The notes: generated from the sequence alone by a model not told the origin. 64,000 nt of DNA from an uncultured Solirubrobacteraceae bacterium (GCA_964588985.1 CAZPQW010000008.1:1-64000); one strand, 5' to 3'; positions 33,991 through 58,875 are shown, numbered from the stretch's first letter. Program-made: numbers and translations.

Positions 33991-34014
33991 GTCCAATCGT
34001 AAAGGAGTAGTTAG

Positions 34015-34638
34015 ATGAGGCGTACAACAACGACGGCAGTGGGGCTGGTGGCCCTTGTGGTGATGTTGGTGCTCGGCGTGTTCTCCGCCGGGTCAGCGTC
34101 AGCGCATTTATTCTTATACACGGGACCCTTACCCTCATTACTCTTAATATTAAGCGAGGGTCCGCAGATCTTCAACGTTACACCAGAAGGCTTCCAAATC
34201 AATTGTCCGCATTTCTTAGGTCATATTCAGGTCTCTAATGGTGTGATGTGGGGCTTAACGGCCAAAGTCACCGGTGACTATCCCGGCAAATGCACCGTGA
34301 CCGGTGGCTCCAAAGGGACGATCTCCCCGGTGGAATACGAAATCAGTGCTGACGGCACGATCTCTATTCTCAAAACCATTACAATCACGGCCGGGAGTCC
34401 GGCCAACTGCAGTCTCTTAGTCGAACCGACCGCAGAAAACCAGAACCTCTCAAGCCTCTTATTCTTAAAAGATCCCCTCAACTCTGGAGCGATATTAGGG
34501 CATGCCGCAGTTGGTGGCATCCACTCGAAAGGCACCAGCGGGGTCTGTTCTGAAAAGGAAGAAAATAACTACACTAAAGGTAGCTATTTCGGCTTATTCT
34601 TAGTGTGGGTGCATGGGGGTACTGTTGCTTGGGAGTAG
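34015..34638 (+). CDS. TTA-rich secreted beta-rich protein, paralogue 1
   Basis: AAGGAG RBS; signal peptide ending ASA; 4 Cys; C-terminal GG.V.WE; 14 TTA codons. Confidence 0.9.
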   Translation: MRRTTTTAVGLVALVVMLVLGVFSAGSASAHLFLYTGPLPSLLLILSEGPQIFNVTPEGFQINCPHFLGHIQVSNGVMWGLTAKVTGDYPGKCTVTGGSKGTISPVEYEISADGTISILKTITITAGSPANCSLLVEPTAENQNLSSLLFLKDPLNSGAILGHAAVGGIHSKGTSGVCSEKEENNYTKGSYFGLFLVWVHGGTVAWE

Positions 34639-34698
34639 TTTAGATATGGCAGTTTCACGCTGTGTTACAGGAGGTTATGAAGGCTAGTTAGCTGGCTT

Positions 34699-34733
34699 GG
34701 GTGGGGGTTGGGTTTGGTGTCTGGCTCCCACCC
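34699..34733 (+). terminator. Conserved hairpin downstream of the TTA-rich gene
   Basis: GGGTGGGGGTT...GGCTCCCACCC; homologous hairpins at 45750, 54750 and 58883. Confidence 0.6.
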
Positions 34734-34816
34734 GGTTTTGTTGCGTGAGGGGAGTTGGTGTGGGTTTGTGTGGTTGTGATGGTGGTGGGGTTGGGTGTCT
34801 AGGAGGGGGTTGGGCT

Positions 34817-37483
34817 GTGGCTGGACCGGCGTTTAGGCGTGTTTGTTTGGTGGTGCTTGTTGTGGTGCTCTCTGGGTGTGTGGTGTGGGTGTCTGTGGCG
34901 GGTGCTGTGGTGTTGCCGGATGGTCGTGGCTATGAGCTGGTTTCGCCGGTGGCGAAGAATGGTTTGAGCCCGTATGCGGCGGTCCCTTCTACCACCGGTG
35001 GGGCGGTGGATTTTCAGGCGCGTGGGGCGTTTGCCGGCGCGACGTCTGGGGCTCTGAACCTGTATCAGGCGACGCGTACGGCTGGTGGCTGGCAGACAGC
35101 GCCGTTGACGCCGGCCCCGTCTACCCCGTTGGGGGCTTTGGAAGAGCAGGCGCCGGTATGGCTGTCGGCGGACTTGTCTGAGGCGATCTTCACGACCCCT
35201 GAGTCCTATGCTCCTGGCGATCAAGACGGCGGCGCGCTGAGCCTGTACGCAGAGGCTGTGGGTGGCGGGTTGAGCTGGCTATCGCAGGGATCTCAGGGAG
35301 GCACGGAATCGAGCGAGACGACGTTCGATGGAGCCTCACCAGACGGGAACCATGTCGTGTTCAGCAGCCACGCATCGCTGATCCCGCCCGCAACAGGGCT
35401 TGGGAGCGATGCAGCCCCAGAAGCGGAGTACCTCTACGAACGCAACGCTCCTGAAGCCCAAACACACCTGCTCAACGTAAACAATGCCGGGCAGATCATC
35501 GGCAGCCTCGAAACCACGCTTCCCAAAGGATACACACCAGGCCCAACGGCAAACTTTATCGCGGTCGCCCTTATCGAAGGAGAGGGCTTTTTCCCGGGGC
35601 AGTTCATCACGGTAGGCGAAGGTGAAAGCGAACTGACCACACAGATCACCCAGGTCTTCAAGATAAGCAGTACAACAGAGAGCTTGGGAGTGGGAAACAA
35701 CGCTGGATTGCCGATAGCGTATCCTGTGGGTACGCGTGTGGCGCATTTGTCGGAAGGCGCGATTTTGGGTGATGGTGGTGATTTGGCGTCGGGTGTGGCG
35801 CCTGCGAGTGAATATTTGCCGGCGGATGCTGGTAGTGGCTCCACGACCCATGCGGTGTCGAGTGATGGCTCGAAGGTGTTCTTCGAGAGCCCGAACCCCG
35901 CGGTTGGCGAGCCGGTGGGCCTATATGTGCGTATAGGTAATGCCACGACTGTAAAGATTGCTGGAGCGAGCGCTGATGGCACCAGACTCAGCGGGCTCCT
36001 CGAATCGGAGGCGGTCATATTCGGTTCGGCGCGGTTTGAGGGTGCGGCGGCGGACGGGTCGCTGGTGTTCTTCACTTCAGGTGAAGGGCTTGCTGGTGCG
36101 ACGAGTGGTGGGGAGGTGTATGAGTTCAACACGACCGGCCATGAAATCGGAGGGGTCAGCCCGTTGTCCGTCGGTGCCGTATCAGCCGGGCTGGGAGGCG
36201 ACAGAACCCCGGCAAGCACCCTCACCGCCACCGCGGCGGGGCGCAAACCGGGCGTAACCATCAGGGTCGCGAGCACGGCGGGGTTCCATGCCGGGGAAGA
36301 GATCATGTTCGCGCCGTTCGAAACAGAAGGAGAATTCGGAATGAGCTCGGGTGTGACGTCGAGGGTCGCGTCGGTGGACAGTGCGACCGAACTCACTCTC
36401 AGCGAAGGCCTGATCGGGGTAGGGTTCGGTGTTCCGGCTGGTACGGAAGTGCATGGTGTTCATCCGGCGTCTGTGGTTGCGGTCGCGGATGATGGTTCGC
36501 GTGTGTATTTCGTCTCGGATGGTGTGTTGGCGGAAAACACGAACGCTCAGGGTGCGAGCGCGGTCCCGGTGCAGCCGAACCTGTACGTGTTCGATACAGC
36601 GACCCAGGAAACCGCGTTTATCGGGACGTTGGCGTCGAGTGATGTGAGGGATGCGGGGGGTAACCCGTCGGGTTTGGTGGGCGAGCCGGATATCTCTCGG
36701 CCTGCTGTGCCGAGCCCTGACGGTGGTGTTCTGGTGTTCGCGTCTGCGGCTGATTTGACGGGCCAGAACCCGTGGCAGCAATACACCGAGATCTACCGGT
36801 ACTCGGTCGCGGGCAACTCGCTGGTGTGCGTGTCGTGCACCGCCCCGGGAGTGAAGCCCGCGGGGAACGCGTCGTTCGGGGAAACCGCCGGCGGCACTTA
36901 TGATCCGCCGGGCTTGACATCCCCGATGAGCGCAGATGGCGCTCGCGTGTTCTTCCAGACCCCAGACTCGCTTGTCGCGGAAGACACGAACGGGAGTGCT
37001 CCTGTGAGCCCGAAGTTCGGGACCCCAACCTCCACGGATGTGTATGAGTGGGAGGAAGGGCACGTGTCACTGATCTCCAGCGGCTCGGCGTCCACCCCGG
37101 CCGTTTTGATGGGCGCCACGCCCAGCGGAAACGATGCGCTGTTCACAACAACAGCGCAACTGGTACCCAGCGAGACTGACGGGGGCTATGAAAACGTGTT
37201 CGACGCACGCGTCGACGGGGGATTCCCCGCCGCAGCGAAAGCCGGCCCCTCATGCTCCGGCTCGGGGTGCACTGCAGCGTTCGGTCTCGCCCCCACGCTC
37301 CAAGCGCCCGCCAGCGCGTCACTACGCGGCCCCGGGAACACGCCCGCCAAGACAACCCCGAAACCAAAGCCAAAGCACATGGCCTGCGGGAAGCGACACG
37401 TACGACGACACGTGAAAGGCCGAACAGTATGCGCCCGACGAGCCAAGAACACCCAGAAAGCAGGCAGCACACATGCACACTAA
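34817..37483 (+). CDS. Large secreted beta-propeller (TolB/WD40-like) surface protein, copy 1
   Basis: AGGAGG RBS before GTG 34817; signal peptide; LPDGRGYELVSP; repeated S.DG..VFF; basic Cys-containing tail. Confidence 0.85.
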   Translation: MAGPAFRRVCLVVLVVVLSGCVVWVSVAGAVVLPDGRGYELVSPVAKNGLSPYAAVPSTTGGAVDFQARGAFAGATSGALNLYQATRTAGGWQTAPLTPAPSTPLGALEEQAPVWLSADLSEAIFTTPESYAPGDQDGGALSLYAEAVGGGLSWLSQGSQGGTESSETTFDGASPDGNHVVFSSHASLIPPATGLGSDAAPEAEYLYERNAPEAQTHLLNVNNAGQIIGSLETTLPKGYTPGPTANFIAVALIEGEGFFPGQFITVGEGESELTTQITQVFKISSTTESLGVGNNAGLPIAYPVGTRVAHLSEGAILGDGGDLASGVAPASEYLPADAGSGSTTHAVSSDGSKVFFESPNPAVGEPVGLYVRIGNATTVKIAGASADGTRLSGLLESEAVIFGSARFEGAAADGSLVFFTSGEGLAGATSGGEVYEFNTTGHEIGGVSPLSVGAVSAGLGGDRTPASTLTATAAGRKPGVTIRVASTAGFHAGEEIMFAPFETEGEFGMSSGVTSRVASVDSATELTLSEGLIGVGFGVPAGTEVHGVHPASVVAVADDGSRVYFVSDGVLAENTNAQGASAVPVQPNLYVFDTATQETAFIGTLASSDVRDAGGNPSGLVGEPDISRPAVPSPDGGVLVFASAADLTGQNPWQQYTEIYRYSVAGNSLVCVSCTAPGVKPAGNASFGETAGGTYDPPGLTSPMSADGARVFFQTPDSLVAEDTNGSAPVSPKFGTPTSTDVYEWEEGHVSLISSGSASTPAVLMGATPSGNDALFTTTAQLVPSETDGGYENVFDARVDGGFPAAAKAGPSCSGSGCTAAFGLAPTLQAPASASLRGPGNTPAKTTPKPKPKHMACGKRHVRRHVKGRTVCARRAKNTQKAGSTHAH

Positions 37484-37739
37484 GACGAAGGGGAAGCGAA
37501 AGCTTGGGCCGTTGATGGCGAGGCATCGAGGCGTTGTGCAGGAGGCGACCGAGGGCGCCGGGACCAGCAGTGCCGGCGACGACCTTTATTAGAGGTGGTC
37601 TCGATCGAGTCGCGTGTAGCGATCCTTGTGCTCGATGAGCCGTAGGCCTCGCAACTCGGTGAGGCGTTTGTGGTTGAGCTCGGGCTGGAGTGTCGCGTCG
37701 AACTGTGGAGAAGTCCAGCGCGCACGATCCCTGGTAGCG

Positions 37740-38246
37740 AGTGAGCCACCGCACTGACCACGGTCAACGGAGCCCCCGACGTCAATCGCAAAATCGGAGG
37801 GAGGTGGGGCCACTTCGAGCGTCAAGAGCGTTGGTCCTTTTGCGAGCGCCCATTATGGATTCGGGCTGTGGCGGGGTCCCAGCTAGCTTCTCGAGGGTGC
37901 TGGTGAGGACGCTGCCACGGAACTCGTTGCCGTTGTCCGAGAGCATCCGTTCCAAGCGCCAGCCCGCGATCTTCAGTGCCCGTGCAACACGTCCGGCGAG
38001 CGCGATTGGGCTGCCTTGCTTGCAGATCACGAGCTCCGCCCAGGCGCAGGAGGACGCGATGTCGATCGCAATGAGCTGTCAGATCGGCGCCCGGTGCCCT
38101 TCTGTCGTCCGGCGTAGAAGCAGGGTGCTGCGTGGCCTGCGATCAGCGCGGGGCACTTGGCGCGGGTGTTCAGCCCGTGGCGGCGAAGAACCTTCCACGC
38201 CCCCGTTCGGCGAGACGATGATCTCGCCCCACTTCTTCAGGCACAA
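37740..38246 (-). pseudogene. Degraded IS481-family transposase remnant
   Basis: Fragments KWGEIIVSPNG, RRHGLNTRAK and GWRLERMLSDNGNEFRG in different frames; boundaries approximate. Confidence 0.6.
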
Positions 38247-38486
38247 GGATCTACCCCTGGTTTGTTGGAGTCGCGTGTTTAGAGTCCTGGCATCGGCTAG
38301 GAGGCAGAATGCCCGCGAGGTATCCATCAGCAGTGCGTCGTCAGGTCGTTGAGCTTGCTCGTGCGGGGACGCGTGTCGCGCAGCTGGCTGAGACGTTCGG
38401 GATGATGACGGGGTCCCTGTGATGTGAGCCAGGTGCTGTGCGTGTTTGTCATGTCCCGTTGGTGGGATGAGAGGATGGACACGATC

Positions 38487-38765
38487 ATGAAGCGACGTAG
38501 GCACACGCCGGAGCAGGCCGTTCGGAAGATCCGTGAGGGCGAACGACTGTTGAACGAGGGGCAGGATCTCGCCGAGGTGCTGAGGCATCTCGAGATCACC
38601 GAGTCGACGTTCAACCGGTGGCGCGCGCAATACGGCGGGCTGAAGGCCGATGAGGCCAAGCGGCTGAAGACGCTCGATGCCGAGAACCAGCGGCTGAAGA
38701 AGCTCGTGGCTGAGCAGGCGCTGGACATCGACATGCTCAAGGAGCTGGCGGAGGGAAACTTTTGA
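38487..38765 (+). CDS. IS407-group transposase OrfA
   Basis: MKRRRHTPEQAVRKIREG...WRAQYGG....AKRLK.L..EN.RLKKLVAEQALD...LKE. Confidence 0.9.
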   Translation: MKRRRHTPEQAVRKIREGERLLNEGQDLAEVLRHLEITESTFNRWRAQYGGLKADEAKRLKTLDAENQRLKKLVAEQALDIDMLKELAEGNF

Positions 38766-39609
38766 CCCCGGAACGTAGGCGCAGAGCTGTCGGTCGGCTC
38801 GAAGAGCGTTTCGGGGTTTCACAGCGCCGTGCGTGCCGGGTAGCTGGGCAGCATCGCTCGACGCAGCGCAAACCCCCGCCGGCGCCACGTCCGGCGGATG
38901 AGCGGCTCGCTGCCCGGTTGCGGGAGATCGCGGGTGAGCATCCGCGGTGGGGGTGGAAGACCGCCCATGAGACCCTGCTCAGGGAGGGCTGGGCACTGAA
39001 CCGCAAGCGAACACGCCGCATCTGGCGCCAGGAGGGCCTGCGGCGGCCCGTGAAGACACGGAAGCGTCGTCGGCTGCCCAGCGGGCAGAAACAGCGTCTG
39101 CGGGCGAGCAGGCCGAACGATGTACGGGCTGTTGATTTCCAGTTCGATGAGATCTCCGACCGGCGCAGGATCAAGCTGTGCAACATCGTGGATGAGTACA
39201 CCCGCGAGGCGCTCGCGATCCGCGTCGCCCGGTCCTGCACCGCCGACGACGTCGTTGAGGTCCTTGCCGGCCTGGTCGCTGAGCGGGGCGCACCCGCCTT
39301 TCTGCGCTCGGATAACGGCCCGGAGTTCATCGCGTGGCACTGCGGGACTACTGCCGAATGACGCTTATGGCCACAAGCTACATCGAGCCGGGATCGCCGT
39401 GGGAGAACCCGTTCGTTGAGTCCTTCAACGGCCGGCTCCGCGACGAGCTGCTGAACATCGAGGAGTTCGGCTCAATCACCGAGGCCAGGGTCGTGATCGA
39501 GGACTGGCGCCACGAGTACAACACCTACCGGCCCCACTCAGCCCTCGGAGGCCGCTGTCCAAGCGAGTACGCCACAATCACAACAACAAACAATCAAGAA
39601 CACACATAG
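38762..39609 (+). pseudogene. IS407-group OrfB integrase with an extra frameshift near 39335
   Basis: DFQFD, NIVDEYTRE, RSDNGPEF in one frame; YIEPGSPWENPFVESFN in another. Confidence 0.82.
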
Positions 39610-39838
39610 CCACTGGACTCCTCACTGGGGCCCCGTCAATGACCGAGACGACGATCTATAACTGGATCAATCAGGAGAAGATCGATCGTGGCGAGATCGT
39701 CGGGCAGACGACGGACCAGGCGTTGGAACTCGCCGCGGCGAAGCGCCGTATCCGAGAGCTCGAGACAGAGCTCGCGGTCTCGCGGAAGGTCAATGAGATC
39801 TTTCTCGATCAGGATCTCGCCCCAAAAGCCTCTTCCCG

Positions 39839-40702: not shown

Positions 40703-40805
40703 CCCCAAACCCACGACTCCGCAAAAATAGGGGTAGTGAGCCAGGCCGGTTTTGACGGGGGCCGTATTCCGTGGATATGTCCGCGGGAGGGGAGAGCCTT
40801 CTGGC

Positions 40806-41108
40806 ATGTCGAGACCGTCGAAGTACCCACCGGAGTTGATCGAGCGCGGGGTTCGTCTGGCGCTTGAGGGCGAGCGGCCGATTGCTCATGTCGCTGATGA
40901 TTTGGGCATCCACCGCGAGACGTTGCGCAAACACGTCAGGCAGGCCGAGGCTGATAGCGGCAAGCGAGGCGACCTGCTCTCGAGCGAGGAGCGGGAGGAG
41001 ATCAAGAAGCTGCGCCGCGAGAACTTCGAGTTGCGCAGGGCGAACGAGATCCTGAAGTCAGCGAGCGTGTTTTTCGCCAAGGAGCTCGACCCAGACCGAA
41101 CGAAGTGA
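40806..41108 (+). CDS. Element C OrfA
   Basis: MSRPSKYPPEL.ER.VR...ELRRANEILKSAS.FFA.ELD. Confidence 0.9.
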   Translation: MSRPSKYPPELIERGVRLALEGERPIAHVADDLGIHRETLRKHVRQAEADSGKRGDLLSSEEREEIKKLRRENFELRRANEILKSASVFFAKELDPDRTK

Positions 41109-44630: not shown

Positions 44631-44718
44631 GACACTCGATCTCCCCTCTTAGATTCAAAACCACAGACGCAGGTCGGTGGCGCAGAAGTCCAAATAGCCG
44701 CACAAATCCGGACTCCTT

Positions 44719-44960: not shown

Positions 44961-45065
44961 AGAAGCTACGGTGTCACGTGTAATGGCTCCTTAGGGATGT
45001 CTAGGCTGATGTTTGACGCTACTCCGGGTGGGCGCTTATAAGTCCAATCGTAAAGGAGTAGTTAG

Positions 45066-45689
45066 ATGAGGCGTACAACAACGACGGCAGTGGGGCTGGT
45101 GGCCCTTGTGGTGATGTTGGTGCTCGGCGTGTTCTCCGCCGGGTCAGCGTCAGCGCATTTATTCTTATACACGGGACCCTTACCCTCATTACTCTTAATA
45201 TTAAGCGAGGGTCCGCAGATCTTCAACGTTACACCAGAAGGCTTCCAAATCAATTGTCCGCATTTCTTAGGTCATATTCAGGTCTCTAATGGTGTGATGT
45301 GGGGCTTAACGGCCAAAGTCACCGGTGACTATCCCGGCAAATGCACCGTGACCGGTGGCTCCAAAGGGACGATCTCCCCGGTGGAATACGAAATCAGTGC
45401 TGACGGCACGATCTCTATTCTCAAAACCATTACAATCACGGCCGGGAGTCCGGCCAACTGCAGTCTCTTAGTCGAACCGACCGCAGAAAACCAGAACCTC
45501 TCAAGCCTCTTATTCTTAAAAGATCCCCTCAACTCTGGAGCGATATTAGGGCATGCCGCAGTTGGTGGCATCCACTCGAAAGGCACCAGCGGGGTCTGTT
45601 CTGAAAAGGAAGAAAATAACTACACTAAAGGTAGCTATTTCGGCTTATTCTTAGTGTGGGTGCATGGGGGTACTGTTGCTTGGGAGTAG
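45066..45689 (+). CDS. TTA-rich secreted protein, paralogue 2 (same protein as paralogue 1)
   Basis: Same 207-aa sequence, 14 TTA codons; leader ORF at 45009-45041. Confidence 0.9.
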   Translation: MRRTTTTAVGLVALVVMLVLGVFSAGSASAHLFLYTGPLPSLLLILSEGPQIFNVTPEGFQINCPHFLGHIQVSNGVMWGLTAKVTGDYPGKCTVTGGSKGTISPVEYEISADGTISILKTITITAGSPANCSLLVEPTAENQNLSSLLFLKDPLNSGAILGHAAVGGIHSKGTSGVCSEKEENNYTKGSYFGLFLVWVHGGTVAWE

Positions 45690-45867
45690 TTTAGATATGG
45701 CAGTTTCACGCTGTGTTACAGGAGGTTATGAAGGCTAGTTAGCTGGCTTGGGTGGGGGTTGGGTTTGGTGTCTGGCTCCCACCCGGTTTTGTTGCGTGAG
45801 GGGAGTTGGTGTGGGTTTGTGTGGTTGTGATGGTGGTGGGGTTGGGTGTCTAGGAGGGGGTTGGGCT

Positions 45868-48534
45868 GTGGCTGGACCGGCGTTTAGGCGTGTTTGTTTG
45901 GTGGTGCTTGTTGTGGTGCTCTCTGGGTGTGTGGTGTGGGTGTCTGTGGCGGGTGCTGTGGTGTTGCCGGATGGTCGTGGCTATGAGCTGGTTTCGCCGG
46001 TGGCGAAGAATGGTTTGAGCCCGTATGCGGCGGTCCCTTCTACCACCGGTGGGGCGGTGGATTTTCAGGCGCGTGGGGCGTTTGCCGGCGCGACGTCTGG
46101 GGCTCTGAACCTGTATCAGGCGACGCGTACGGCTGGTGGCTGGCAGACAGCGCCGTTGACGCCGGCCCCGTCTACCCCGTTGGGGGCTTTGGAAGAGCAG
46201 GCGCCGGTATGGCTGTCGGCGGACTTGTCTGAGGCGATCTTCACGACCCCTGAGTCCTATGCTCCTGGCGATCAAGACGGCGGCGCGCTGAGCCTGTACG
46301 CAGAGGCTGTGGGTGGCGGGTTGAGCTGGCTATCGCAGGGATCTCAGGGAGGCACGGAATCGAGCGAGACGACGTTCGATGGAGCCTCACCAGACGGGAA
46401 CCATGTCGTGTTCAGCAGCCACGCATCGCTGATCCCGCCCGCAACAGGGCTTGGGAGCGATGCAGCCCCAGAAGCGGAGTACCTCTACGAACGCAACGCT
46501 CCTGAAGCCCAAACACACCTGCTCAACGTAAACAATGCCGGGCAGATCATCGGCAGCCTCGAAACCACGCTTCCCAAAGGATACACACCAGGCCCAACGG
46601 CAAACTTTATCGCGGTCGCCCTTATCGAAGGAGAGGGCTTTTTCCCGGGGCAGTTCATCACGGTAGGCGAAGGTGAAAGCGAACTGACCACACAGATCAC
46701 CCAGGTCTTCAAGATAAGCAGTACAACAGAGAGCTTGGGAGTGGGAAACAACGCTGGATTGCCGATAGCGTATCCTGTGGGTACGCGTGTGGCGCATTTG
46801 TCGGAAGGCGCGATTTTGGGTGATGGTGGTGATTTGGCGTCGGGTGTGGCGCCTGCGAGTGAATATTTGCCGGCGGATGCTGGTAGTGGCTCCACGACCC
46901 ATGCGGTGTCGAGTGATGGCTCGAAGGTGTTCTTCGAGAGCCCGAACCCCGCGGTTGGCGAGCCGGTGGGCCTATATGTGCGTATAGGTAATGCCACGAC
47001 TGTAAAGATTGCTGGAGCGAGCGCTGATGGCACCAGACTCAGCGGGCTCCTCGAATCGGAGGCGGTCATATTCGGTTCGGCGCGGTTTGAGGGTGCGGCG
47101 GCGGACGGGTCGCTGGTGTTCTTCACTTCAGGTGAAGGGCTTGCTGGTGCGACGAGTGGTGGGGAGGTGTATGAGTTCAACACGACCGGCCATGAAATCG
47201 GAGGGGTCAGCCCGTTGTCCGTCGGTGCCGTATCAGCCGGGCTGGGAGGCGACAGAACCCCGGCAAGCACCCTCACCGCCACCGCGGCGGGGCGCAAACC
47301 GGGCGTAACCATCAGGGTCGCGAGCACGGCGGGGTTCCATGCCGGGGAAGAGATCATGTTCGCGCCGTTCGAAACAGAAGGAGAATTCGGAATGAGCTCG
47401 GGTGTGACGTCGAGGGTCGCGTCGGTGGACAGTGCGACCGAACTCACTCTCAGCGAAGGCCTGATCGGGGTAGGGTTCGGTGTTCCGGCTGGTACGGAAG
47501 TGCATGGTGTTCATCCGGCGTCTGTGGTTGCGGTCGCGGATGATGGTTCGCGTGTGTATTTCGTCTCGGATGGTGTGTTGGCGGAAAACACGAACGCTCA
47601 GGGTGCGAGCGCGGTCCCGGTGCAGCCGAACCTGTACGTGTTCGATACAGCGACCCAGGAAACCGCGTTTATCGGGACGTTGGCGTCGAGTGATGTGAGG
47701 GATGCGGGGGGTAACCCGTCGGGTTTGGTGGGCGAGCCGGATATCTCTCGGCCTGCTGTGCCGAGCCCTGACGGTGGTGTTCTGGTGTTCGCGTCTGCGG
47801 CTGATTTGACGGGCCAGAACCCGTGGCAGCAATACACCGAGATCTACCGGTACTCGGTCGCGGGCAACTCGCTGGTGTGCGTGTCGTGCACCGCCCCGGG
47901 AGTGAAGCCCGCGGGGAACGCGTCGTTCGGGGAAACCGCCGGCGGCACTTATGATCCGCCGGGCTTGACATCCCCGATGAGCGCAGATGGCGCTCGCGTG
48001 TTCTTCCAGACCCCAGACTCGCTTGTCGCGGAAGACACGAACGGGAGTGCTCCTGTGAGCCCGAAGTTCGGGACCCCAACCTCCACGGATGTGTATGAGT
48101 GGGAGGAAGGGCACGTGTCACTGATCTCCAGCGGCTCGGCGTCCACCCCGGCCGTTTTGATGGGCGCCACGCCCAGCGGAAACGATGCGCTGTTCACAAC
48201 AACAGCGCAACTGGTACCCAGCGAGACTGACGGGGGCTATGAAAACGTGTTCGACGCCCGCGTCAACGGGGGATTCCCCGCCGCAGCGAAAGCCGGCCCC
48301 TCATGCTCCGGCTCCGGGTGCACTGCAGCGTTCGGTCTCGCCCCCACGCTCCAAGCGCCCGCCAGCGCATCACTACACGGCCCCGGAAACACGCCCGCCA
48401 AGACAACCCCGAAACCAAAGCCAAAGCGAATGGCCTGCGGAAAGCGACACGTACGACGACACGTGAAAGGCCGAACAATCTGCGCCCGACGAGCCAAGAA
48501 CACCCAGAAGACAGGCAGCACACATGCACACTAA
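45868..48534 (+). CDS. Large secreted beta-propeller surface protein, copy 2
   Basis: Differs from copy 1 by five residues, all near the C-terminus. Confidence 0.85.
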   Translation: MAGPAFRRVCLVVLVVVLSGCVVWVSVAGAVVLPDGRGYELVSPVAKNGLSPYAAVPSTTGGAVDFQARGAFAGATSGALNLYQATRTAGGWQTAPLTPAPSTPLGALEEQAPVWLSADLSEAIFTTPESYAPGDQDGGALSLYAEAVGGGLSWLSQGSQGGTESSETTFDGASPDGNHVVFSSHASLIPPATGLGSDAAPEAEYLYERNAPEAQTHLLNVNNAGQIIGSLETTLPKGYTPGPTANFIAVALIEGEGFFPGQFITVGEGESELTTQITQVFKISSTTESLGVGNNAGLPIAYPVGTRVAHLSEGAILGDGGDLASGVAPASEYLPADAGSGSTTHAVSSDGSKVFFESPNPAVGEPVGLYVRIGNATTVKIAGASADGTRLSGLLESEAVIFGSARFEGAAADGSLVFFTSGEGLAGATSGGEVYEFNTTGHEIGGVSPLSVGAVSAGLGGDRTPASTLTATAAGRKPGVTIRVASTAGFHAGEEIMFAPFETEGEFGMSSGVTSRVASVDSATELTLSEGLIGVGFGVPAGTEVHGVHPASVVAVADDGSRVYFVSDGVLAENTNAQGASAVPVQPNLYVFDTATQETAFIGTLASSDVRDAGGNPSGLVGEPDISRPAVPSPDGGVLVFASAADLTGQNPWQQYTEIYRYSVAGNSLVCVSCTAPGVKPAGNASFGETAGGTYDPPGLTSPMSADGARVFFQTPDSLVAEDTNGSAPVSPKFGTPTSTDVYEWEEGHVSLISSGSASTPAVLMGATPSGNDALFTTTAQLVPSETDGGYENVFDARVNGGFPAAAKAGPSCSGSGCTAAFGLAPTLQAPASASLHGPGNTPAKTTPKPKPKRMACGKRHVRRHVKGRTICARRAKNTQKTGSTHAH

Positions 48535-48556
48535 GACGAAGGAAACAGAGGGAGCG

Positions 48557-53928: not shown

Positions 53929-53959
53929 CTCGGTGACCAGCAGCACAGCGCCGGAGTAA

Positions 53960-53998
53960 GAAACTGCGCTTGCATAATGCTGACAGTTCCCTTATTAT
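53960..53998 (+). promoter_or_regulatory. Sigma70-type promoter with GAAACT element
   Basis: GAAACTGCGC-TTGCAT-N17-TATTAT. Confidence 0.7.
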
Positions 53999-54055
53999 TC
54001 AGAATAAGGGAACTACTGGAAGATGCGGTTCCTGGAGGGATGTCCCCGAGCCTTC

Positions 54056-54100
54056 ATGATTGACGCTACTCCGAGTGGGCGCTTACAAGTCCAATCGTAA
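54056..54100 (+). other. Leader ORF MIDATPSGR[TTA]QVQS*
   Basis: In-frame TTA at 54083; TAA abuts the AGGAG RBS. Confidence 0.45.
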
Positions 54101-54117
54101 AGGAGTGGTTGAGGCAT

Positions 54118-54735
54118 ATGAGGCGTGTAACAACGACAGCCATGGGGCTGGTGGCCCTTGTGGCGGTGCTGCTGCTCGGCGTGTTCTTCGCCGGGTCGGC
54201 ATCGGCGCACTTATTCTTATACACAGGACCCTTACCGACCTTACTGTTACTCTTAAGTGATAGCGCGCAGATCTTCAGCTTTGTGCCAGAAGGCCTGCAA
54301 ATAAGTTGTCCGCATTTCTTAGGTCACATCCTGTTCTCTGGCGGGACGATGTGGGGATTAACGACCAAAGTCACTGGTGACTATCCCGGCAAATGCACGA
54401 TGACCGGTGGCTCCAAACTGACTTTCTCACCGGTGGAATATGAACTCAATGCCGACGGAACGATATCGATTCTCAAAACTATCACGATTACGGCCGGTAG
54501 TCCGGCCAGCTGCAGTTTCTTAATCGAACCGACCGCAGCGAATCAGAACCTCTCAAGCCTCTTATTCTTAAAAGATCCTCTGAACTCTTCGGCACTGTTA
54601 GCGCACGTCGCTGTTGGAGGCATCCACTCAAAAGGAACCAATGGGCTATGCGCCGAAGGCGGGGAACACACGAACACAACATATTTCGGCTTAATCTTAG
54701 TGCGGGTCGATGGAGGTAACGTTACATGGGAGTAG
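54118..54735 (+). CDS. TTA-rich secreted protein, paralogue 3
   Basis: Homologous to 34015..34638; 14 TTA at the same aligned positions. Confidence 0.9.
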   Translation: MRRVTTTAMGLVALVAVLLLGVFFAGSASAHLFLYTGPLPTLLLLLSDSAQIFSFVPEGLQISCPHFLGHILFSGGTMWGLTTKVTGDYPGKCTMTGGSKLTFSPVEYELNADGTISILKTITITAGSPASCSFLIEPTAANQNLSSLLFLKDPLNSSALLAHVAVGGIHSKGTNGLCAEGGEHTNTTYFGLILVRVDGGNVTWE

Positions 54736-54749
54736 CTCGTTAGCCGCCA

Positions 54750-54781
54750 GGTGGGAGCCGGGCTGATGTCCGGCTCCCACC
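54750..54781. terminator. Hairpin between paralogue 3 and convergent polX
   Basis: GGTGGGAGCCGGGC-tgat-GTCCGGCTCCCACC. Confidence 0.7.
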
Positions 54782-54810
54782 CGCGGTCATACCGGTCGTG
54801 GGTGAATGAC

Positions 54811-56559
54811 TCACGTGGATCGTCTACACAGGAGCCTGAATTTCGGCCAGGGCAGCGCGTTCGCCACTGCATCGGTGTTCAACCACGCCCGTCGCGCCGT
54901 AGCGACCCCCCAGCGCATGTTCGTCAGCGTAGCCGTCCGGTGCGCATCGGAGTCGATCACGATTCGAACGCCGGCCCGATGAGCGGCCTGAGCATGCACA
55001 TCGGACAAATCGCGCCGATCCGGATTCCCATTGATCTCTAGCGTCGTCCCAGTCCGCGCGGCCGCAGCAAACATAGTCTCAAGATCAACTGCGTAAGGCG
55101 CGCGCCGCCCGATCAGTCTCCCAGTCGGATGCCCGATCGTATCGACAAGCGGATGCTCAATCGCGGCTACTATCCGCTCAGTCATGGCCTGCTCACCCAT
55201 CCCGAATGACGTATGCACACTGGCGATGACCCAGTCGAGCTGCGCGAGCAGCTCATCCTCATAATCGAGCGACCCGTCGGGCAGGATGTTAACCTCGCTC
55301 CCCGCCAGCAGCTCGATCCCCGCGATCCGCTCGTTCGCCTCGCGCACCAACTCGATCTGCCGCCGCAACTGCTCAGGCGAGACGTCGTTGCCGAACCCGT
55401 GGCTGGCCGAGTGGTCGGTGATGGCGAGGTACTCGTATCCTCGCTCTCGAGCAGCAAGCGCCATCTCCTCGATCGTGTTGTGCCCATCGGAGGCGATGGT
55501 GTGGCAGTGCAGATCTCCGCGGATGTCCCCGAGCTCGATCAGTCTCGGCAGTCCGTTCGGCGACGAGGCCGCCTCCAGCTCGCCCCGGTTCTCCCGCAGC
55601 TCCGGCGGGATGTAGGCAAGCCCGAGCCGCGCATAGACCTCCGCCTCGCTCGTGTACGCGCCGGAGACCCCGGTGGCATCGTCGAGAACGCCGTACTCGG
55701 ACACATGCAGCCCACGCCTCACCGCCGCCTCCCGCAGCGCGGCGTTGTGCGCCCCCGAGCCGGTGAAGTGCTGCAGCAGGTTGCCGAGCTGTGCCGGCTT
55801 GGCGATCCGCAGGTCGATCCCGACCCCCGAGTGCGTGCGTGCCTTGGCCCCTGCCTTGCCGGCGGAGCTGACGCTCTCGATCTCCTCCAGCTTCGCCAGA
55901 CTCTTGGCGAGCGCCGTGGGACGCGTGGTCGCGGCGACGAGGTCGATGTCCTTGACGCTGTCGGCCTGCCGGCGCGCGGAGCCGGCGAGCTGCACGTACG
56001 TGCCCTCCCCGCCCAGCTCCAGCAGCCCCGCAACAAGCGCCTCGCCGATCTCGATCGCCCGCGGCAAGAGGATCCGCTGAGCTCCGGCGCCCGCCGGCCG
56101 TGCGTCCATCTCCGCGAGCGCGGCGAGGACCCCTTCCTCGAACTTGGCGCCCAGCCCGCGAACGGTCCGCAGCCGCTGCGCCAGGGCGGCCTCGCGCAGC
56201 GCCTGCGGCGAGTCGATCCCCAGCTCGGCGTGCAGCAGCCGGGCTCGCTTGGGGCCGAGCCCCGGCAGCCTGGTGATCGCGACGAGGCCGGCGGGGAACT
56301 TGGCGCGCAGCCGCTCGGCCGAGGGGATGGCGCCGGTCTGCGCGAGCGTGAGGATCTTCTCCTGCAGGGTCTTGCCGATGCCAGGCAGCTCGGTGGCTCG
56401 CCCCGCACGCGCGAGCGCGGCGACCGACACCGAGGCCTCACGCACGGCTTTGGCGGCGGTCCGGTACGCCACGACGCGGTGGACGATGGCGCCGTCGAGC
56501 TCGTAGAGATCGCCCAGCTCTTCGAAGGCATCCGCGATGACGGCGTTCGACGGGTCCAC
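54811..56559 (-). CDS. polX: DNA polymerase/3'-5' exonuclease PolX with PHP domain
   Basis: LPGIGK, PGLGPKR, AGSARR....KDID, HFTGSGAHN, GDLHCHT..SDG, AITDHS, GHPTGR, DSDAH. Confidence 0.92.
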   Translation of the reverse strand: MDPSNAVIADAFEELGDLYELDGAIVHRVVAYRTAAKAVREASVSVAALARAGRATELPGIGKTLQEKILTLAQTGAIPSAERLRAKFPAGLVAITRLPGLGPKRARLLHAELGIDSPQALREAALAQRLRTVRGLGAKFEEGVLAALAEMDARPAGAGAQRILLPRAIEIGEALVAGLLELGGEGTYVQLAGSARRQADSVKDIDLVAATTRPTALAKSLAKLEEIESVSSAGKAGAKARTHSGVGIDLRIAKPAQLGNLLQHFTGSGAHNAALREAAVRRGLHVSEYGVLDDATGVSGAYTSEAEVYARLGLAYIPPELRENRGELEAASSPNGLPRLIELGDIRGDLHCHTIASDGHNTIEEMALAARERGYEYLAITDHSASHGFGNDVSPEQLRRQIELVREANERIAGIELLAGSEVNILPDGSLDYEDELLAQLDWVIASVHTSFGMGEQAMTERIVAAIEHPLVDTIGHPTGRLIGRRAPYAVDLETMFAAAARTGTTLEINGNPDRRDLSDVHAQAAHRAGVRIVIDSDAHRTATLTNMRWGVATARRAWLNTDAVANALPWPKFRLLCRRST

Positions 56560-56580
56560 TCCTCTAGGGTACGCGGACGA

Positions 56581-57300
56581 ATGTCTGGGGCGCCCTGGCT
56601 GATACTGCCCACCTACAACGAGGCTGAGAACGTGAAGGCGATCCTCGCCGCCGCCGGCGAGGTGCTCGCGAGCGCGGCTCCGGACGGCTTTCGCGTGCTG
56701 GTGGTCGACGACGGCTCGCCTGACGGCACGGGTCGGCTGGCGGATGAGATGGCGGCGGAGCACGAGTGGGTTCAGGTGCTCCACCGCACGGAGAAGAACG
56801 GCATCGGCCCCGCCTACCTGGCGGGCTTCCGTCACGCGCTCGACCAGGGCGCCGGCTACGTGATGGAGATGGACTCGGACTTCTCCCACGACCCGGCCGA
56901 CCTGGCGCGGCTGCTTGAGGCGGTCCGCGACGGCGCCGACCTGGCGCTCGGCTCGCGCTACGTCCCGGGCGGAGGGGTGACCGACTGGGGGCTCTTGCGA
57001 CGCTTCATCAGCGAGGGCGGCTCCACCTACGCGCGGCTCGTGCTCGGCCTGAAGGTGCGCGACCTGACGGGCGGCTTCAAGTGCTTCCGCCGCGAGGTAT
57101 TGGAGGCCATCCACTTCGACGGCGTGCGCTCGCAGGGCTACGCGTTCCAGGTCGAGCTGACCTATCGCGCGGTCCAGGCCGGCTTCAAGGTCGTCGAGGT
57201 GCCGATCGTGTTTCGCGACCGCCAGCAGGGGACAAGCAAGATGTCCTGGCGCATCGCCGCCGAGGCGATGTGGCTGGTTCCGCTTCTGCGCTTCAGGTAG
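56581..57300 (+). CDS. ppm1: Polyprenol monophosphomannose synthase (GT2)
   Basis: LPTYNEAEN, VDDGSPDGTG, EMDSDFSHDP, GSRYVPGG, DLTGGFKCFR, GYAFQVE. Confidence 0.88.
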   Translation: MSGAPWLILPTYNEAENVKAILAAAGEVLASAAPDGFRVLVVDDGSPDGTGRLADEMAAEHEWVQVLHRTEKNGIGPAYLAGFRHALDQGAGYVMEMDSDFSHDPADLARLLEAVRDGADLALGSRYVPGGGVTDWGLLRRFISEGGSTYARLVLGLKVRDLTGGFKCFRREVLEAIHFDGVRSQGYAFQVELTYRAVQAGFKVVEVPIVFRDRQQGTSKMSWRIAAEAMWLVPLLRFR

Positions 57301-57326
57301 CCGCGCAGCAGGCCGATGTCGAACAC

Positions 57327-58076
57327 ATGGATGCGTCCGCATACGCGTTCGCCCACGGCGTGCGGCATACGCGCGCGACGCTCCGTGCGTGGCAGGAGCA
57401 GCCCGGCCGGGTGGTCGGTCGCTGGGTGGCGGGCTCGGCCGCTGCGTCCGCAGGCCTGCTCGTCGCGGTGCTCGTCATCGCCTCGCTCGATCACGGCTAC
57501 CAGCAGATCGTCAGTCTGCAGCCGCCGTTCGGTCAGGGCGACGTCGGAGACGTGCTGCACGTGCTGCGCAGCAACATGCTCGTGCTGGCCCTGCACGCGA
57601 TGGCGTGCGTGGCGGGGTTCATCGCCGGCAGCTCGCTGCCTCTGCAGGCCGAGCGCCACAGCGGCGTATCGCGCTGGGTCCACGAACACGGCGGGCGGAT
57701 CGCGATCGCGTTCGTCGCCTGCGCGACGACGTTCTCGCTGAGCGCGCAGGCGTATCTCATCGGGCACTCGCTCGCGGGAGTGTCGGGCTTCCTCGAAGTC
57801 TCGCCGGGGCTACTCCTGCTGGGCGTGCTGCCGCACGCGATCCCCGAGCTGATCGCGCTGTTCCTGCCGCTGGCGGCGTGGATCATCGCGAGCCGTCGCG
57901 GGGAGTGGGAGCAGCTGCTGGCGGCGACGGTCGTGACGGTGGCGCTGGCCGTGCCTGTGCTCGTCGTGGCCGCATTCGTAGAGGTCTACGTCTCGCCGCA
58001 CCTCTTCGCGGCTCTGACCCACATCCACCCGCCGATCGTGCGCCAATCCGAAGGGTGGACCGTCATCGTGCGCTAG
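57327..58076 (+). CDS. SpoIIM (DUF95)-like membrane protein
   Basis: N.LV, LPHAIPEL.A and AAFVE.YVSP motifs; multiple TM segments. Confidence 0.75.
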   Translation: MDASAYAFAHGVRHTRATLRAWQEQPGRVVGRWVAGSAAASAGLLVAVLVIASLDHGYQQIVSLQPPFGQGDVGDVLHVLRSNMLVLALHAMACVAGFIAGSSLPLQAERHSGVSRWVHEHGGRIAIAFVACATTFSLSAQAYLIGHSLAGVSGFLEVSPGLLLLGVLPHAIPELIALFLPLAAWIIASRRGEWEQLLAATVVTVALAVPVLVVAAFVEVYVSPHLFAALTHIHPPIVRQSEGWTVIVR

Positions 58077-58093
58077 GTCGCAAACGCTGGTAG

Positions 58094-58132
58094 GAAACTG
58101 CGCTTGCACGATACCGTCCGCGAGCATATAAT
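58094..58132 (+). promoter_or_regulatory. Sigma70-type promoter with GAAACT element
   Basis: GAAACTGCGC-TTGCAC-N17-TATAAT. Confidence 0.75.
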
Positions 58133-58186
58133 TCTAGCTAAGGAGTCGTTTCGCATAGTTGGTTCCCTAAGGGGTGTCCTGGCCTG

Positions 58187-58231
58187 ATGATCGACGCTAC
58201 TCCGAGTGGGCGCTTACAAGTCCAATCGTAA
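58187..58231 (+). other. Leader ORF MIDATPSGR[TTA]QVQS*
   Basis: In-frame TTA at 58214; TAA abuts the RBS. Confidence 0.45.
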
Positions 58232-58248
58232 AGGAGTGGTTGAGGCAC

Positions 58249-58875
58249 ATGAGACATGTAACAACGACAGCCACGGGTCTGATGGCCCTTGTGATGATGC
58301 TGGTGCTCGGGGTGTTCTCCGCCGGGTCGGCGTCGGCGCACTTATTTTTATACACAGGACCATTACCGGTCTTACTTTTACTCTTAAGTGACAATGCGCA
58401 GATCTTCAACCCTGCAGAGGGTAATGAAGGTACTAGCATTAGCTGCCCGCATTTCCGTGGCCACATACTATTCGCTGGTGGCACGATGTGGGGGTTAACG
58501 GCCAAAGTAACTGGCGAATATCCTGGAAAGTGCAAAGGATTCATCGGCGCCAAAGCAACCGTCTCACCGGTTGAATACGAAATCAATGCCGATGGCACGA
58601 TATCGGTTCTCAAAACCATTACGATCACGATCGGTAGTCCGTGGATCTGCAGTCTCTTAGTCGATCCGGTCGCCGCGAATCAGAATCTCTCGGGCCTCTT
58701 ATTCTTAAAAGATCCTCTGGCCCCGAGCTTAGCCCTATTAGTGCACGCTGCGGTTGGAGGCATCCACTCATTAGGCACAAACGGGGAATGTGCTGAAGCA
58801 GGAGAACATCCTGCAGGTACCTATTTCGGCTTAATCTTAGTATGGGCTCATGGGGGCACCGTTTCATGGGAGTAG
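58249..58875 (+). CDS. TTA-rich secreted protein, paralogue 4
   Basis: Homologous to paralogues 1-3; 15 TTA codons. Confidence 0.9.
   Translation: MRHVTTTATGLMALVMMLVLGVFSAGSASAHLFLYTGPLPVLLLLLSDNAQIFNPAEGNEGTSISCPHFRGHILFAGGTMWGLTAKVTGEYPGKCKGFIGAKATVSPVEYEINADGTISVLKTITITIGSPWICSLLVDPVAANQNLSGLLFLKDPLAPSLALLVHAAVGGIHSLGTNGECAEAGEHPAGTYFGLILVWAHGGTVSWE

What the first reader, a model, noticed from the sequence alone, without database searches (positions are those of the whole stretch)
34015..58875. TTA is invariant, position-specific and exchanges with Lys/Arg rather than Leu codons
Counted by hand: 14, 14, 14 and 15 TTA codons, none in the signal peptides. Thirteen aligned positions are TTA in all three distinct paralogues and never TTG or CTN, although neighbours vary silently (GGC/GGA/GGG, TTC/TTT, CCC/CCA) and ordinary Leu positions vary (CTC/CTG/CTT). 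Where TTA differs it aligns with CGT Arg (58456, HF-x-GH), AAA Lys (58771 versus 34528 and 54631, HS-x-G) or Gly/Ser (58729). Many TTAs alternate with hydrophobic residues (HxFxY, xLxIxS, LxFxK, GxFxV), the pattern of the exposed face of amphipathic beta-strands; read as Leu these segments are oddly hydrophobic. I saw no in-frame TTA in the adjacent large island genes. Inference: TTA specifies a polar, probably basic residue. Alternative: extreme bldA-type control, which in Streptomyces usually needs only one or a few TTAs.
Basis: partly seen in the sequence, partly recalled or inferred. Interest (0 to 1): 0.92.

Follow-up and report, generated by a model that had tools for sequence, protein, structure and literature searches.

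The report
TTA codon with private tRNA–synthetase pair
Small secreted proteins of a soil actinobacterium are packed with the almost unused codon TTA at fixed surface positions, and the same genomes carry a private tRNA for that codon beside a diverged synthetase, so TTA may be read there as something other than leucine.

Summary
The four ORFs hold 14, 14, 14 and 15 TTA codons, against about 0.25 per 1000 codons genome-wide.

TTA does not behave like leucine here:
- Seven orthologues of 42-77% identity never swap TTA for another Leu codon in any of 9 invariant columns, while other residues vary synonymously.
- TTA columns align with K, T, E, S and R in relatives. The five other Leu codons align with I and V.

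New evidence from the rest of the genome (contig C5):
- There is a second tRNA with anticodon UAA, 73 nt with a short variable loop, beside the canonical long-arm tRNA-Leu(UAA).
- Next to it lies a strongly diverged arginyl-tRNA-synthetase-like gene (aaRS-X). All three guanidinium-binding residues are replaced.
- The cluster also holds a lysine N6-monooxygenase homologue, a P450, a PabAB-like gene and a deacetylase-like gene.
- The tRNA occurs in 46 of 80 congeneric genomes, and all 46 also have aaRS-X.

Best reading (0.55): this pair decodes TTA in the family as a polar non-leucine residue of unknown identity.

Against it: four housekeeping TTAs sit at L/M/F/L positions, one pair-less genome has TTA-rich genes, and nothing is shown biochemically.

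The parts
34015..34638 (+). TTA-rich secreted protein gene A (207 aa, 14 TTA)
   Evidence: Signal peptide ending in ASA, four conserved Cys, all-beta AlphaFold2 model with pLDDT 76.6.
45066..45689 (+). Identical second copy of gene A (14 TTA)
   Evidence: It lies in an exactly repeated block.
54109..54735 (+). TTA-rich paralogue C (14 TTA); the probable start is the ATG at 54118
   Evidence: profile match from 54118.
58174..58875 (+). TTA-rich paralogue D (15 TTA); the probable start is the ATG at 58249
   Evidence: profile match from 58249.
33922..37206 (.). First copy of an exact 3285-bp duplication (second copy at 44973-48257), carrying gene A and most of the 928-aa gene
44973..48257 (.). 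Second copy of the exact 3285-bp duplication
34697..37483 (+). 928-aa gene directly downstream of gene A (weak PD40 beta-propeller repeat), 0 TTA; its copy is at 45748-48534
   Evidence: This is context only; no functional link was shown.

Best explanation
The window genes belong to a large family of small secreted beta-rich proteins. In a subset of members, exposed beta-strand positions are encoded by TTA.

In this genus TTA has a second decoder: a 73-nt tRNA with a short variable loop and anticodon UAA (G000 contig C5, 104171-104243, minus strand). It lies directly beside a strongly diverged arginyl-tRNA-synthetase-like enzyme, aaRS-X (C5 102473-104146). Both sit in an accessory cluster with a lysine N6-monooxygenase homologue, a P450, a PabAB-like enzyme and a deacetylase-like enzyme.

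I propose three steps:
1. aaRS-X charges this tRNA with a polar amino acid that is neither leucine nor, probably, plain arginine.
2. The charged tRNA competes with the canonical tRNA-Leu(UAA) at TTA.
3. The secreted-protein family has recruited TTA to place that residue at fixed surface positions.

Shown: the codon pattern, its conservation and non-synonymy, the polar character of the columns, the pair and its co-occurrence, and the altered pocket.

Inferred: that the pair works in translation, that it reads these TTAs, and what it inserts.
For: (1) TTA is frozen.
- In 7 orthologues of 42-77% identity, 22 TTA columns hold 94 TTA against 4 TTG.
- All 9 invariant TTA columns use one codon only. 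Other invariant columns vary synonymously: G 9 of 9, S 4 of 4, F 3 of 3, P 3 of 3, H 3 of 3, A 4 of 5.

(2) TTA columns are polar.
- The non-TTA residues in them are K 11, S 7, R 5, E 5, G 4, A 3 and so on. Columns with other Leu codons hold I 30 and V 28.
- The BLOSUM likelihood gives K, K and T in three alignments, while CTG, CTC, CTT, CTA and TTG come out as V, I or L.
- 'lLlIl' aligns with KTKGK, KVKSK and KIKSK in TTA-free homologues.

(3) A second tRNA(UAA) exists.
- It has a 4-nt variable loop.
- Its closest relative in the genome is tRNA-Arg(CCU), 51 of 73 identical.
- The anticodon loop is kept in 32 UAA-type copies.
- 5 of 22 stem pairs show compensatory changes.

(4) The adjacent aaRS-X looks like a working class I synthetase of ArgRS type.
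- It hits only ArgRS: PF00750 at 27.8 bits, TIGR00456 at 83.8 bits against a cut-off of 261.65, 10 of 10 PDB sequence hits, and the top 19 Foldseek hits.
- It keeps the HVGH motif.
- The canonical ArgRS is a different gene, scoring 394.6 bits.

(5) Co-occurrence.
- The tRNA was found in 46 of 80 congeneric genomes, and all 46 have aaRS-X. 31 genomes have neither, and 1 has UAA-type aaRS-X only.
- aaRS-X was not found in 300 other genomes of the phylum.

(6) Sister pairs. tRNA(UAG) in 2 genomes and tRNA(UCU) in 3 genomes each sit beside their own aaRS-X clade.

(7) The pocket has changed. The three guanidinium-binding residues of E. coli ArgRS (D118, Y313, D317; PMC3956977, passages read) are Q, Q and A in aaRS-X.

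(8) The cluster resembles a biosynthetic set.
- The monooxygenase matches L-Lys monooxygenase 4D7E at 1.8e-63.
- In the UAA- and UAG-type modules, the deacetylase-like gene is present in 10 of 10, and the monooxygenase, PabAB-like gene and P450 in 8 of 10 each.
- The aaRS-X and P450 orthologues are missing in 5 of 5 pair-less genomes, and the PabAB-like orthologue in 4 of 5.

(9) Link to TTA-rich genes.
- All 5 genomes with family genes of 8 or more TTA carry the pair: G000, G023, G096, G097, G098.
- TTA-cluster patterns are commoner in pair-bearing genomes, median 10 against 4 (the genomes are not independent).
Against: - No biochemical or proteomic evidence exists. Use of the tRNA in translation is inferred.
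- The canonical long-arm tRNA-Leu(UAA) is present.
- 4 of 4 informative housekeeping TTAs align with L, M, F and L in solved homologues. TTA is therefore not reassigned genome-wide, and decoding would be ambiguous.
- G068 (93% complete, 150 contigs) has three family genes with 5, 5 and 6 TTA, but neither the tRNA nor aaRS-X was found there.
- The tRNA has A73, A15, U48 and G18G19, which the review PMC9976931 names as leucine identity elements in E. coli, where the long arm is dispensable. LeuRS might therefore charge it.
- The gene cluster could instead serve a small-molecule pathway.
- In a second subfamily, TTA aligns with L, I or V in 17 of 47 cases.
- Two columns of the window family align with L, I or V in TTA-free relatives.
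Confidence: 0.55

Rival explanations
1. TTA is read as leucine throughout. The TTA-rich members have a leucine-coated outer face, for example a small beta-barrel that sits in a hydrophobic layer or self-assembles. The many TTAs gate translation on the supply of a UAA-decoding tRNA, an extreme form of bldA control. The aaRS-X/tRNA cluster either supplies Leu-tRNA(UAA) or belongs to an unrelated small-molecule pathway.
For: - Housekeeping TTAs sit at L, M, F and L positions, 4 of 4.
- The canonical tRNA-Leu(UAA) is present.
- The extra tRNA has A73, A15-U48 and G18G19, and E. coli LeuRS needs neither the anticodon nor the long arm (PMC9976931, passages read).
- The ESM Atlas structure search puts outer-membrane beta-barrel families nearest, at TM 0.50-0.55.
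- Residues between the TTAs are hydrophobic in TTA-rich members.
- With TTA counted as neutral, net charge is -5, close to the -3 of TTA-free relatives.
- G068 has TTA-rich genes without the pair.
- The cluster looks like a biosynthetic gene cluster.
Against: - Gating cannot explain why pre-existing, conserved Leu positions and signal-peptide Leu are never TTA, while TTA fills positions that are K, T or E in relatives.
- Per-site selection for gating should be weak, yet 0 of 9 invariant TTA columns show a synonymous change where other residues are saturated.
- An ArgRS-derived enzyme is an unlikely leucine ligase.
- No outer membrane is known to me in this group (recalled).
- The match between an anticodon-UAA accessory tRNA and TTA-packed genes in the same genomes would be coincidence.
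Confidence: 0.27
2. One reading: the pair inserts a canonical basic residue, arginine or lysine, at TTA.
For: - The tRNA and the enzyme are of arginine ancestry.
- In close paralogues TTA swaps with CGT (Arg), AAA (Lys) and Arg.
- The likelihood ranks K first and R second among the orthologues.
- TTA content anticorrelates with Lys content.
- TTA occupies position 2 or 3 of some signal-peptide n-regions, where relatives have R or K.
Against: - aaRS-X lacks all three guanidinium-binding residues.
- Both LysRS copies keep what I recall as the U35-binding R..F..Q motif, so neither looks adapted to A35.
- Net charge would jump to about +9.
- I see no benefit in a private pair for an amino acid that already has six or two codons.
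Confidence: 0.12
3. The TTA excess is a leftover of foreign, AT-rich codon usage in horizontally acquired islands and has no function.
For: The genes lie in islands of 57-64% GC within a 68% GC genome and have GC3 of 0.55-0.59.
Against: - The neighbouring island genes have 0 TTA.
- The other AT-ending Leu codons are not raised.
- The TTAs are position-specific and are kept across orthologues of 42-55% identity in other genomes.
Confidence: 0.03

Closest known systems
ProRSx / tRNA-ProX 'dedicated mistranslation' pairs of Streptomyces and Kitasatospora (PMC10404621, abstract and outline read; table entry in PMC9437257)
   Same: - An accessory tRNA combines the body of one identity with the anticodon of another.
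- It is encoded next to a distinct isoform of the matching synthetase.
- It occurs in Actinomycetota with a patchy distribution.
   Different: - The synthetase here is ArgRS-like with a rebuilt amino-acid pocket, not a ProRS isoform.
- The codon is the rarest one, TTA.
- A gene family is packed with that codon at fixed positions, which points to programmed, gene-specific use. The known pairs cause proteome-wide stress mistranslation.
- Amino-acid-modifying enzymes are clustered with the pair.
bldA (tRNA-Leu UAA) control of TTA-containing genes in Streptomyces (recalled; listings)
   Same: TTA is nearly absent from a high-GC actinobacterial genome and concentrated in accessory genes, and a UAA-anticodon tRNA may limit their translation.
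   Different: - bldA is the single canonical long-arm tRNA-Leu, and its target genes carry one or a few TTAs at ordinary Leu positions.
- Here there are 14-15 TTAs per 207-233 codons, at polar positions, never exchanged with other Leu codons.
- Here there is also a second, non-canonical tRNA with its own synthetase-like gene.
Pyrrolysine cassette pylT-pylS-pylBCD (recalled; reviews listed)
   Same: A tRNA, a dedicated synthetase and lysine-modifying enzymes lie in one accessory cluster, and a small set of genes uses the codon.
   Different: - A sense codon is used, not a stop codon.
- The synthetase is class I and ArgRS-derived.
- The enzymes are unrelated to PylBCD.
- No non-canonical residue has been shown.
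Bacterial sense-codon reassignments found by Codetta-type screens (PMC8629427 and two 2026 preprints, listings and abstract starts; one preprint searched for terms)
   Same: A sense codon may take on a new meaning through a tRNA with an altered anticodon.
   Different: - As I recall, those cases are genome-wide and mostly affect Arg codons.
- Here housekeeping TTAs keep Leu-type positions and the canonical tRNA is retained, so any new meaning is confined to one gene family or is ambiguous.
- TTA and UUA are not mentioned in the one preprint I searched.
allo-tRNAs with serine identity and Leu anticodons, including UAA (PMC5389517, passages read)
   Same: These are natural tRNAs carrying a Leu anticodon but, in the reported tests, another amino acid.
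   Different: - allo-tRNAs have 8/4 or 9/3 acceptor/T architecture and use SerRS.
- The tRNA here is an ordinary 7/5 cloverleaf with a short variable loop, and it has its own synthetase-like gene.

Membership tests
bldA-type TTA regulation | TTA is very rare genome-wide | tested here: met
   0.25 per 1000 codons in 3077 high-GC3 ORFs, and many of those lie upstream of the real starts.
bldA-type TTA regulation | A single canonical long-arm tRNA-Leu(UAA) is the only decoder | tested here: not met
   Two tRNAs with anticodon UAA: an 87-nt long-arm one on C1 and a 73-nt short-loop one on C5.
bldA-type TTA regulation | Target genes carry one or a few TTAs at ordinary leucine positions | tested here: not met
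   14-15 TTAs per gene. The columns align with K, T, E, S and R, and there is no exchange with other Leu codons.
Dedicated aaRS/tRNA pair with mismatched anticodon (ProRSx type) | The tRNA body and the anticodon point to different identities | tested here: inconclusive
   The anticodon is UAA (Leu). There is no long variable arm. The closest in-genome relative is tRNA-Arg(CCU), 51 of 73, and sister tRNAs carry UCU. It also carries A73, A15-U48 and G18G19.
Dedicated aaRS/tRNA pair with mismatched anticodon (ProRSx type) | A synthetase paralogue is encoded beside the tRNA and co-occurs with it | tested here: met
   They are adjacent, or 4-6 kb apart in one subclade. All 46 genomes with the tRNA have aaRS-X.
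Dedicated aaRS/tRNA pair with mismatched anticodon (ProRSx type) | Demonstrated insertion of the non-cognate amino acid at the codon | not testable with these tools
   This needs reporter assays or mass spectrometry.
Genome-wide sense-codon reassignment | The codon aligns with the new residue in conserved housekeeping proteins | tested here: not met
   4 of 4 informative housekeeping TTAs align with L, M, F and L, and 1 falls at a gap.
Genome-wide sense-codon reassignment | Loss or change of the original cognate tRNA | tested here: not met
   The canonical tRNA-Leu(UAA) is present on C1, 258520-258606.
Arginine-tRNA ligase (for aaRS-X) | Class I HIGH motif and full-length ArgRS architecture | tested here: met
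   HVGH is invariant in 13 orthologues. All 10 PDB sequence hits and the top 19 Foldseek hits are ArgRS. The model has only pLDDT 54, so the fold match is weak evidence.
Arginine-tRNA ligase (for aaRS-X) | Score above the curated equivalog cut-off | tested here: not met
   TIGR00456 scores 83.8 bits against a cut-off of 261.65. The canonical copy on C4 scores 394.6 bits.
Arginine-tRNA ligase (for aaRS-X) | Guanidinium-binding residues (E. coli D118, Y313, D317) | tested here: not met
   They are Q (N, Y or H in sister clades), Q and A (S or T in sister clades) in the aaRS-X family. The canonical copy keeps E, Y and D (the residue roles come from PMC3956977).
Bacterial tRNA-Leu | Long variable arm (class II structure) | tested here: not met
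   4-nt variable loop.
Bacterial tRNA-Leu | A73, the A15-U48 pair and G18G19 | tested here: met
   All can be read from the sequence and alignment. The list of elements is from PMC9976931. A20a is not present.
Pyl-type code-expansion cassette | tRNA, dedicated synthetase and amino-acid biosynthesis genes in one accessory cluster | tested here: inconclusive
   The gene content fits. What the enzymes make is unknown.

The most novel reading that the evidence does not exclude
The cluster may be a natural code-expansion cassette that works on a sense codon. In this reading the lysine N6-monooxygenase homologue, with the deacetylase-like, P450 and PabAB-like enzymes, makes a non-canonical lysine-derived amino acid. 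The simplest guess is N6-hydroxylysine, which as I recall is largely uncharged near neutral pH. The ArgRS-derived aaRS-X loads it on tRNA(UAA), or on tRNA(UAG) in the sister modules. A family of secreted barrel-like proteins then displays a dozen such residues on its surface, for example for metal binding or cross-linking.
Probability: 0.25. Interest if true: 0.98.

Novelty: new variant of a known kind. Interest (0 to 1): 0.9.

Why it matters
If the best reading holds, this would be the first case I know of with three features together:
- a bacterium gives a rare sense codon a second, gene-family-specific meaning;
- it does so through a private synthetase/tRNA pair;
- the target genes are identifiable from sequence.

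That would link 'dedicated mistranslation' pairs to true recoding. It would also offer a ready-made orthogonal class I pair for synthetic biology. And it would mean that standard translation of these metagenome proteins writes the wrong residue at about 7% of positions.

Even if TTA is leucine, a short-variable-loop bacterial tRNA with a Leu anticodon, paired with a rebuilt ArgRS paralogue and found in more than half of the sampled genomes of a soil genus, is unexplained biology.

Tried and rejected
- A LysRS-based explanation. The genome has two class II LysRS genes, window 4189-5946 (minus strand) and contig C11. Both are genus-wide whether or not the tRNA is present. Both keep what I recall as the U35-binding R..F..Q motif. 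I dropped this idea.
- A LeuRS2-based explanation. A second LeuRS-like gene (C18 24771-27101) lacks the TTRPDT editing motif. It is present in all 24 congeners examined and in another genus, so it does not track the tRNA. It is not excluded as a charger, but nothing points to it.
- A CTA-cluster pattern, to test whether genomes with the UAG-type pair hold CTA-rich genes. It is swamped by TAC codons in other frames, and all five genomes gave 68-85 hits. Uninformative.
- The TTA-cluster pattern is noisy. Its reversed control is as frequent as the pattern in G000, 25 against 26. I use it only as a rank comparison.
- Foldseek of the family model against the PDB gave no match at E <= 0.001. The best TM was about 0.3, to PsbO and OmpA-type barrels.
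- Pfam finds nothing for the family.
- Burial of TTA positions could not be computed, because structure prediction returns no coordinates.
- The AlphaFold2 model of aaRS-X is poor, pLDDT 54.4.
- No RNA holder is listed for window 33900-37500.
- Literature. I found no paper linking TTA or UUA to Solirubrobacter, to reassignment, or to ArgRS paralogues in the searches. Supplementary files were not consulted.

Full report
**The observation**

The window is about 68% GC. It holds four ORFs of 207-233 codons: 34015-34638, an identical copy at 45066-45689, 54109-54735 and 58174-58875. They carry 14, 14, 14 and 15 TTA codons.

- No TTA lies in a signal peptide.
- Thirteen positions are TTA in all three distinct paralogues.
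- Eleven neighbouring window ORFs have no TTA at all.
- Genome-wide, 3077 high-GC3 ORFs hold 281 TTA in 1.11 million codons. Many of those fall before the real start codons.
- The four window ORFs top the genome list. They are followed by some fifteen other small secreted ORFs with 4-11 TTA on other contigs.

**The family**

The genes belong to a large family without a Pfam model.

- 16 members of the closest subfamily lie in this genome. About 28 ORFs fall into three or four subfamilies.
- 657 cluster representatives match in the 1.84-billion-protein library at E <= 0.001.
- Source names place the organism in Solirubrobacteraceae.
- An AlphaFold2 model of gene A is all-beta with long strands, pLDDT 76.6. 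Foldseek gives only weak barrel-like hits. The ESM Atlas structure search puts outer-membrane-barrel-like clusters nearest, at TM 0.50-0.55. These are leads, not a fold assignment.

**TTA does not behave like leucine here**

Orthologues in other genomes keep the excess, with 14, 14, 13, 10, 12 and 8 TTA. Ten other relatives have none.

Among seven TTA-rich orthologues of 42-77% identity:
- 22 columns contain TTA. They hold 94 TTA, 4 TTG, and K 11, S 7, R 5, E 5, G 4, A 3, with only I 1, F 1 and Y 1 among hydrophobic residues.
- Columns with other Leu codons hold I 30 and V 28.
- All nine columns that are invariant TTA use one codon only. Invariant columns of other residues almost always vary synonymously.

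A BLOSUM-based likelihood names K, K and T for TTA in three alignments. It names V, I or L for each of the other five Leu codons. The method gets only 29-37 of 52-60 control codons exactly right, so I trust the class of residue, not the residue itself.

In TTA-free homologues the motif 'lLlIl' reads KTKGK, KVKSK or KIKSK.

Across 37 family members the TTA fraction anticorrelates with Lys (r = -0.80), and also with Thr and Glu.

Points against a simple picture:
- Two columns align with L, I or V in TTA-free relatives.
- In a second subfamily, L, I and V make up 17 of 47 aligned residues.
- Counting TTA as a basic residue would move the net charge from about -5 to +9, while TTA-free relatives lie near -3.

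**A second tRNA for TTA**

ARAGORN finds two tRNAs with anticodon UAA. One is the canonical 87-nt long-arm tRNA-Leu. The other is a 73-nt tRNA with a 4-nt variable loop and A73.

- Its closest relative in the genome is tRNA-Arg(CCU), 51 of 73 identical.
- It was found in 46 of 80 other genomes of the genus, and in 30 of 37 high-quality ones counting G000. It was found in none of 16 genomes from other families of the order.
- It is also present in the two genomes that hold the closest TTA-rich orthologues.
- Across 32 UAA-type copies the anticodon loop is CTTAAA[C/A].
- In 17 distinct sequences, 5 of 22 stem pairs show compensatory changes.
- It looks like a working tRNA.
- It carries A73, A15-U48 and G18G19. 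A review names these as leucine identity elements in E. coli, where the long arm is dispensable (PMC9976931, passages read).

**A private synthetase**

Directly downstream of the tRNA lies a 557-aa gene that I call aaRS-X.

- It matches only arginyl-tRNA synthetases, and weakly.
- It keeps the HVGH signature.
- The real ArgRS is elsewhere, on contig C4.
- All 46 genomes with the tRNA have aaRS-X. 31 have neither. One, G051, has the UAA-type enzyme without a tRNA hit. Two further genomes, G047 and G087, matched only through sister clades.
- aaRS-X was not found in 300 other genomes of the phylum at E <= 1e-40, with only four candidates scored per genome.
- Sister clades of the enzyme sit beside tRNAs with anticodon UAG (G088, G067; odd loop with C37) and UCU (G022, G075, G047). 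Enzyme clade and anticodon therefore go together.
- The three residues that hold the guanidinium group in E. coli ArgRS are D118, Y313 and D317 (PMC3956977, passages read). They are E, Y and D in the canonical copy, but Q, Q and A in aaRS-X. Plain arginine is therefore an unlikely substrate.

**The cluster**

Around the pair lie four more genes: a deacetylase-like gene, a fused PabAB-like gene, a P450, and a homologue of L-lysine N6-monooxygenase (4D7E, E = 1.8e-63).

- In ten UAA- or UAG-type modules, the deacetylase-like gene is present in 10. The monooxygenase, PabAB-like gene and P450 are present in 8 each.
- Five pair-less genomes lack orthologues of aaRS-X and the P450, and four of five lack the PabAB-like gene.
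- This is an accessory unit.
- It could make an unusual amino acid for the tRNA, or it could be a small-molecule pathway that happens to use a tRNA.

**Does the pair go with the TTA-rich genes?**

- All five genomes with family genes of 8 or more TTA have the pair.
- TTA-cluster patterns are commoner in pair-bearing genomes, median 10 against 4, Mann-Whitney p about 3e-5. The genomes are related, so this is not a true probability.
- The exception is G068. It has three genes with 5, 5 and 6 TTA and no pair in a 93%-complete, 150-contig assembly.

**Housekeeping TTAs**

Genuine internal TTAs in ordinary genes are very few. Of five examined:
- four align with L (GlmS), M (glutamyl-tRNA reductase), F (sulfatase) and L (isochorismate synthase) in solved homologues;
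- one falls at a gap.

The standard meaning therefore survives. Any new meaning is either confined to the family or ambiguous, with two tRNAs competing.

**Verdict**

The reading 'not ordinary leucine, polar' is backed by two lines of evidence. One is comparative. The other is an independent find, a private tRNA(UAA)/synthetase pair. 'Basic' is open.

I put 0.55 on decoding of these TTAs by the pair as a non-leucine residue. I put 0.27 on leucine with tRNA-gated translation. The rest is split between smaller alternatives.

The nearest known systems are the ProRSx/tRNA-ProX pairs of Streptomyces (PMC10404621, abstract read) and, in layout, the pyrrolysine cassette (recalled).

Noticed in passing
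window 4189-5946 (-): A second class II lysyl-tRNA synthetase lies in the window. It is 45-48% identical to the copy on contig C11. All 24 congeners examined have two copies, while 15 of 16 genomes of other families in the order show one and 1 shows no match. Its role is unknown.
   Followed up: partly
G000 contig C18 24771-27101 (+), outside the window: A second LeuRS-like gene of 777 aa scores below the equivalog cut-off. It lacks the TTRPDT editing motif and has KMSKH where KMSKS is expected. It is present across the genus and in one other genus.
   Followed up: partly
window 33922-37206 and 44973-48257: An exact 3285-bp duplication carries gene A and most of the 928-aa gene. Either the duplication is very recent or it is an assembly effect.
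   Followed up: no
G000 contig C27, 31243-31339 (-), outside the window: ARAGORN calls a 97-nt tRNA-like gene with a four-base anticodon 'ggag' and a long extra arm. It may be a misread selenocysteine or long-arm tRNA.
   Followed up: no
L089 8385-8457 (G088) and L090 9300-9372 (G067): These paralogues of the private tRNA have anticodon UAG and an unusual loop, TTTAGCG, with C at position 37. Each lies beside its own aaRS-X paralogue (44-49% identical), a deacetylase-like gene and a monooxygenase.
   Followed up: partly
L088 7977-9771 (G022), L092 8344-10094 (G075), L104 1107 onwards (G047): A third clade of aaRS-X (32-37% identical) lies beside a tRNA with anticodon UCU. No P450, monooxygenase or other cluster gene was found within about 9 kb in G022 and G075; the flanks of the G047 pair were not examined. 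It may be the ancestral form of the pair.
   Followed up: partly
G000 contig C5 44787-46867, outside the window: A family member with 3 TTA (C5 44787-45455) lies directly beside the genome's only AspRS, an archaeal-type non-discriminating enzyme of 438 aa, and ValRS. This is probably coincidence.
   Followed up: no
window 54811-57342 (-) and 59368-62706 (-): A PolX-type polymerase with a PHP domain and IleRS flank the TTA-rich paralogues C and D. Both have normal codon usage and 0 TTA.
   Followed up: no
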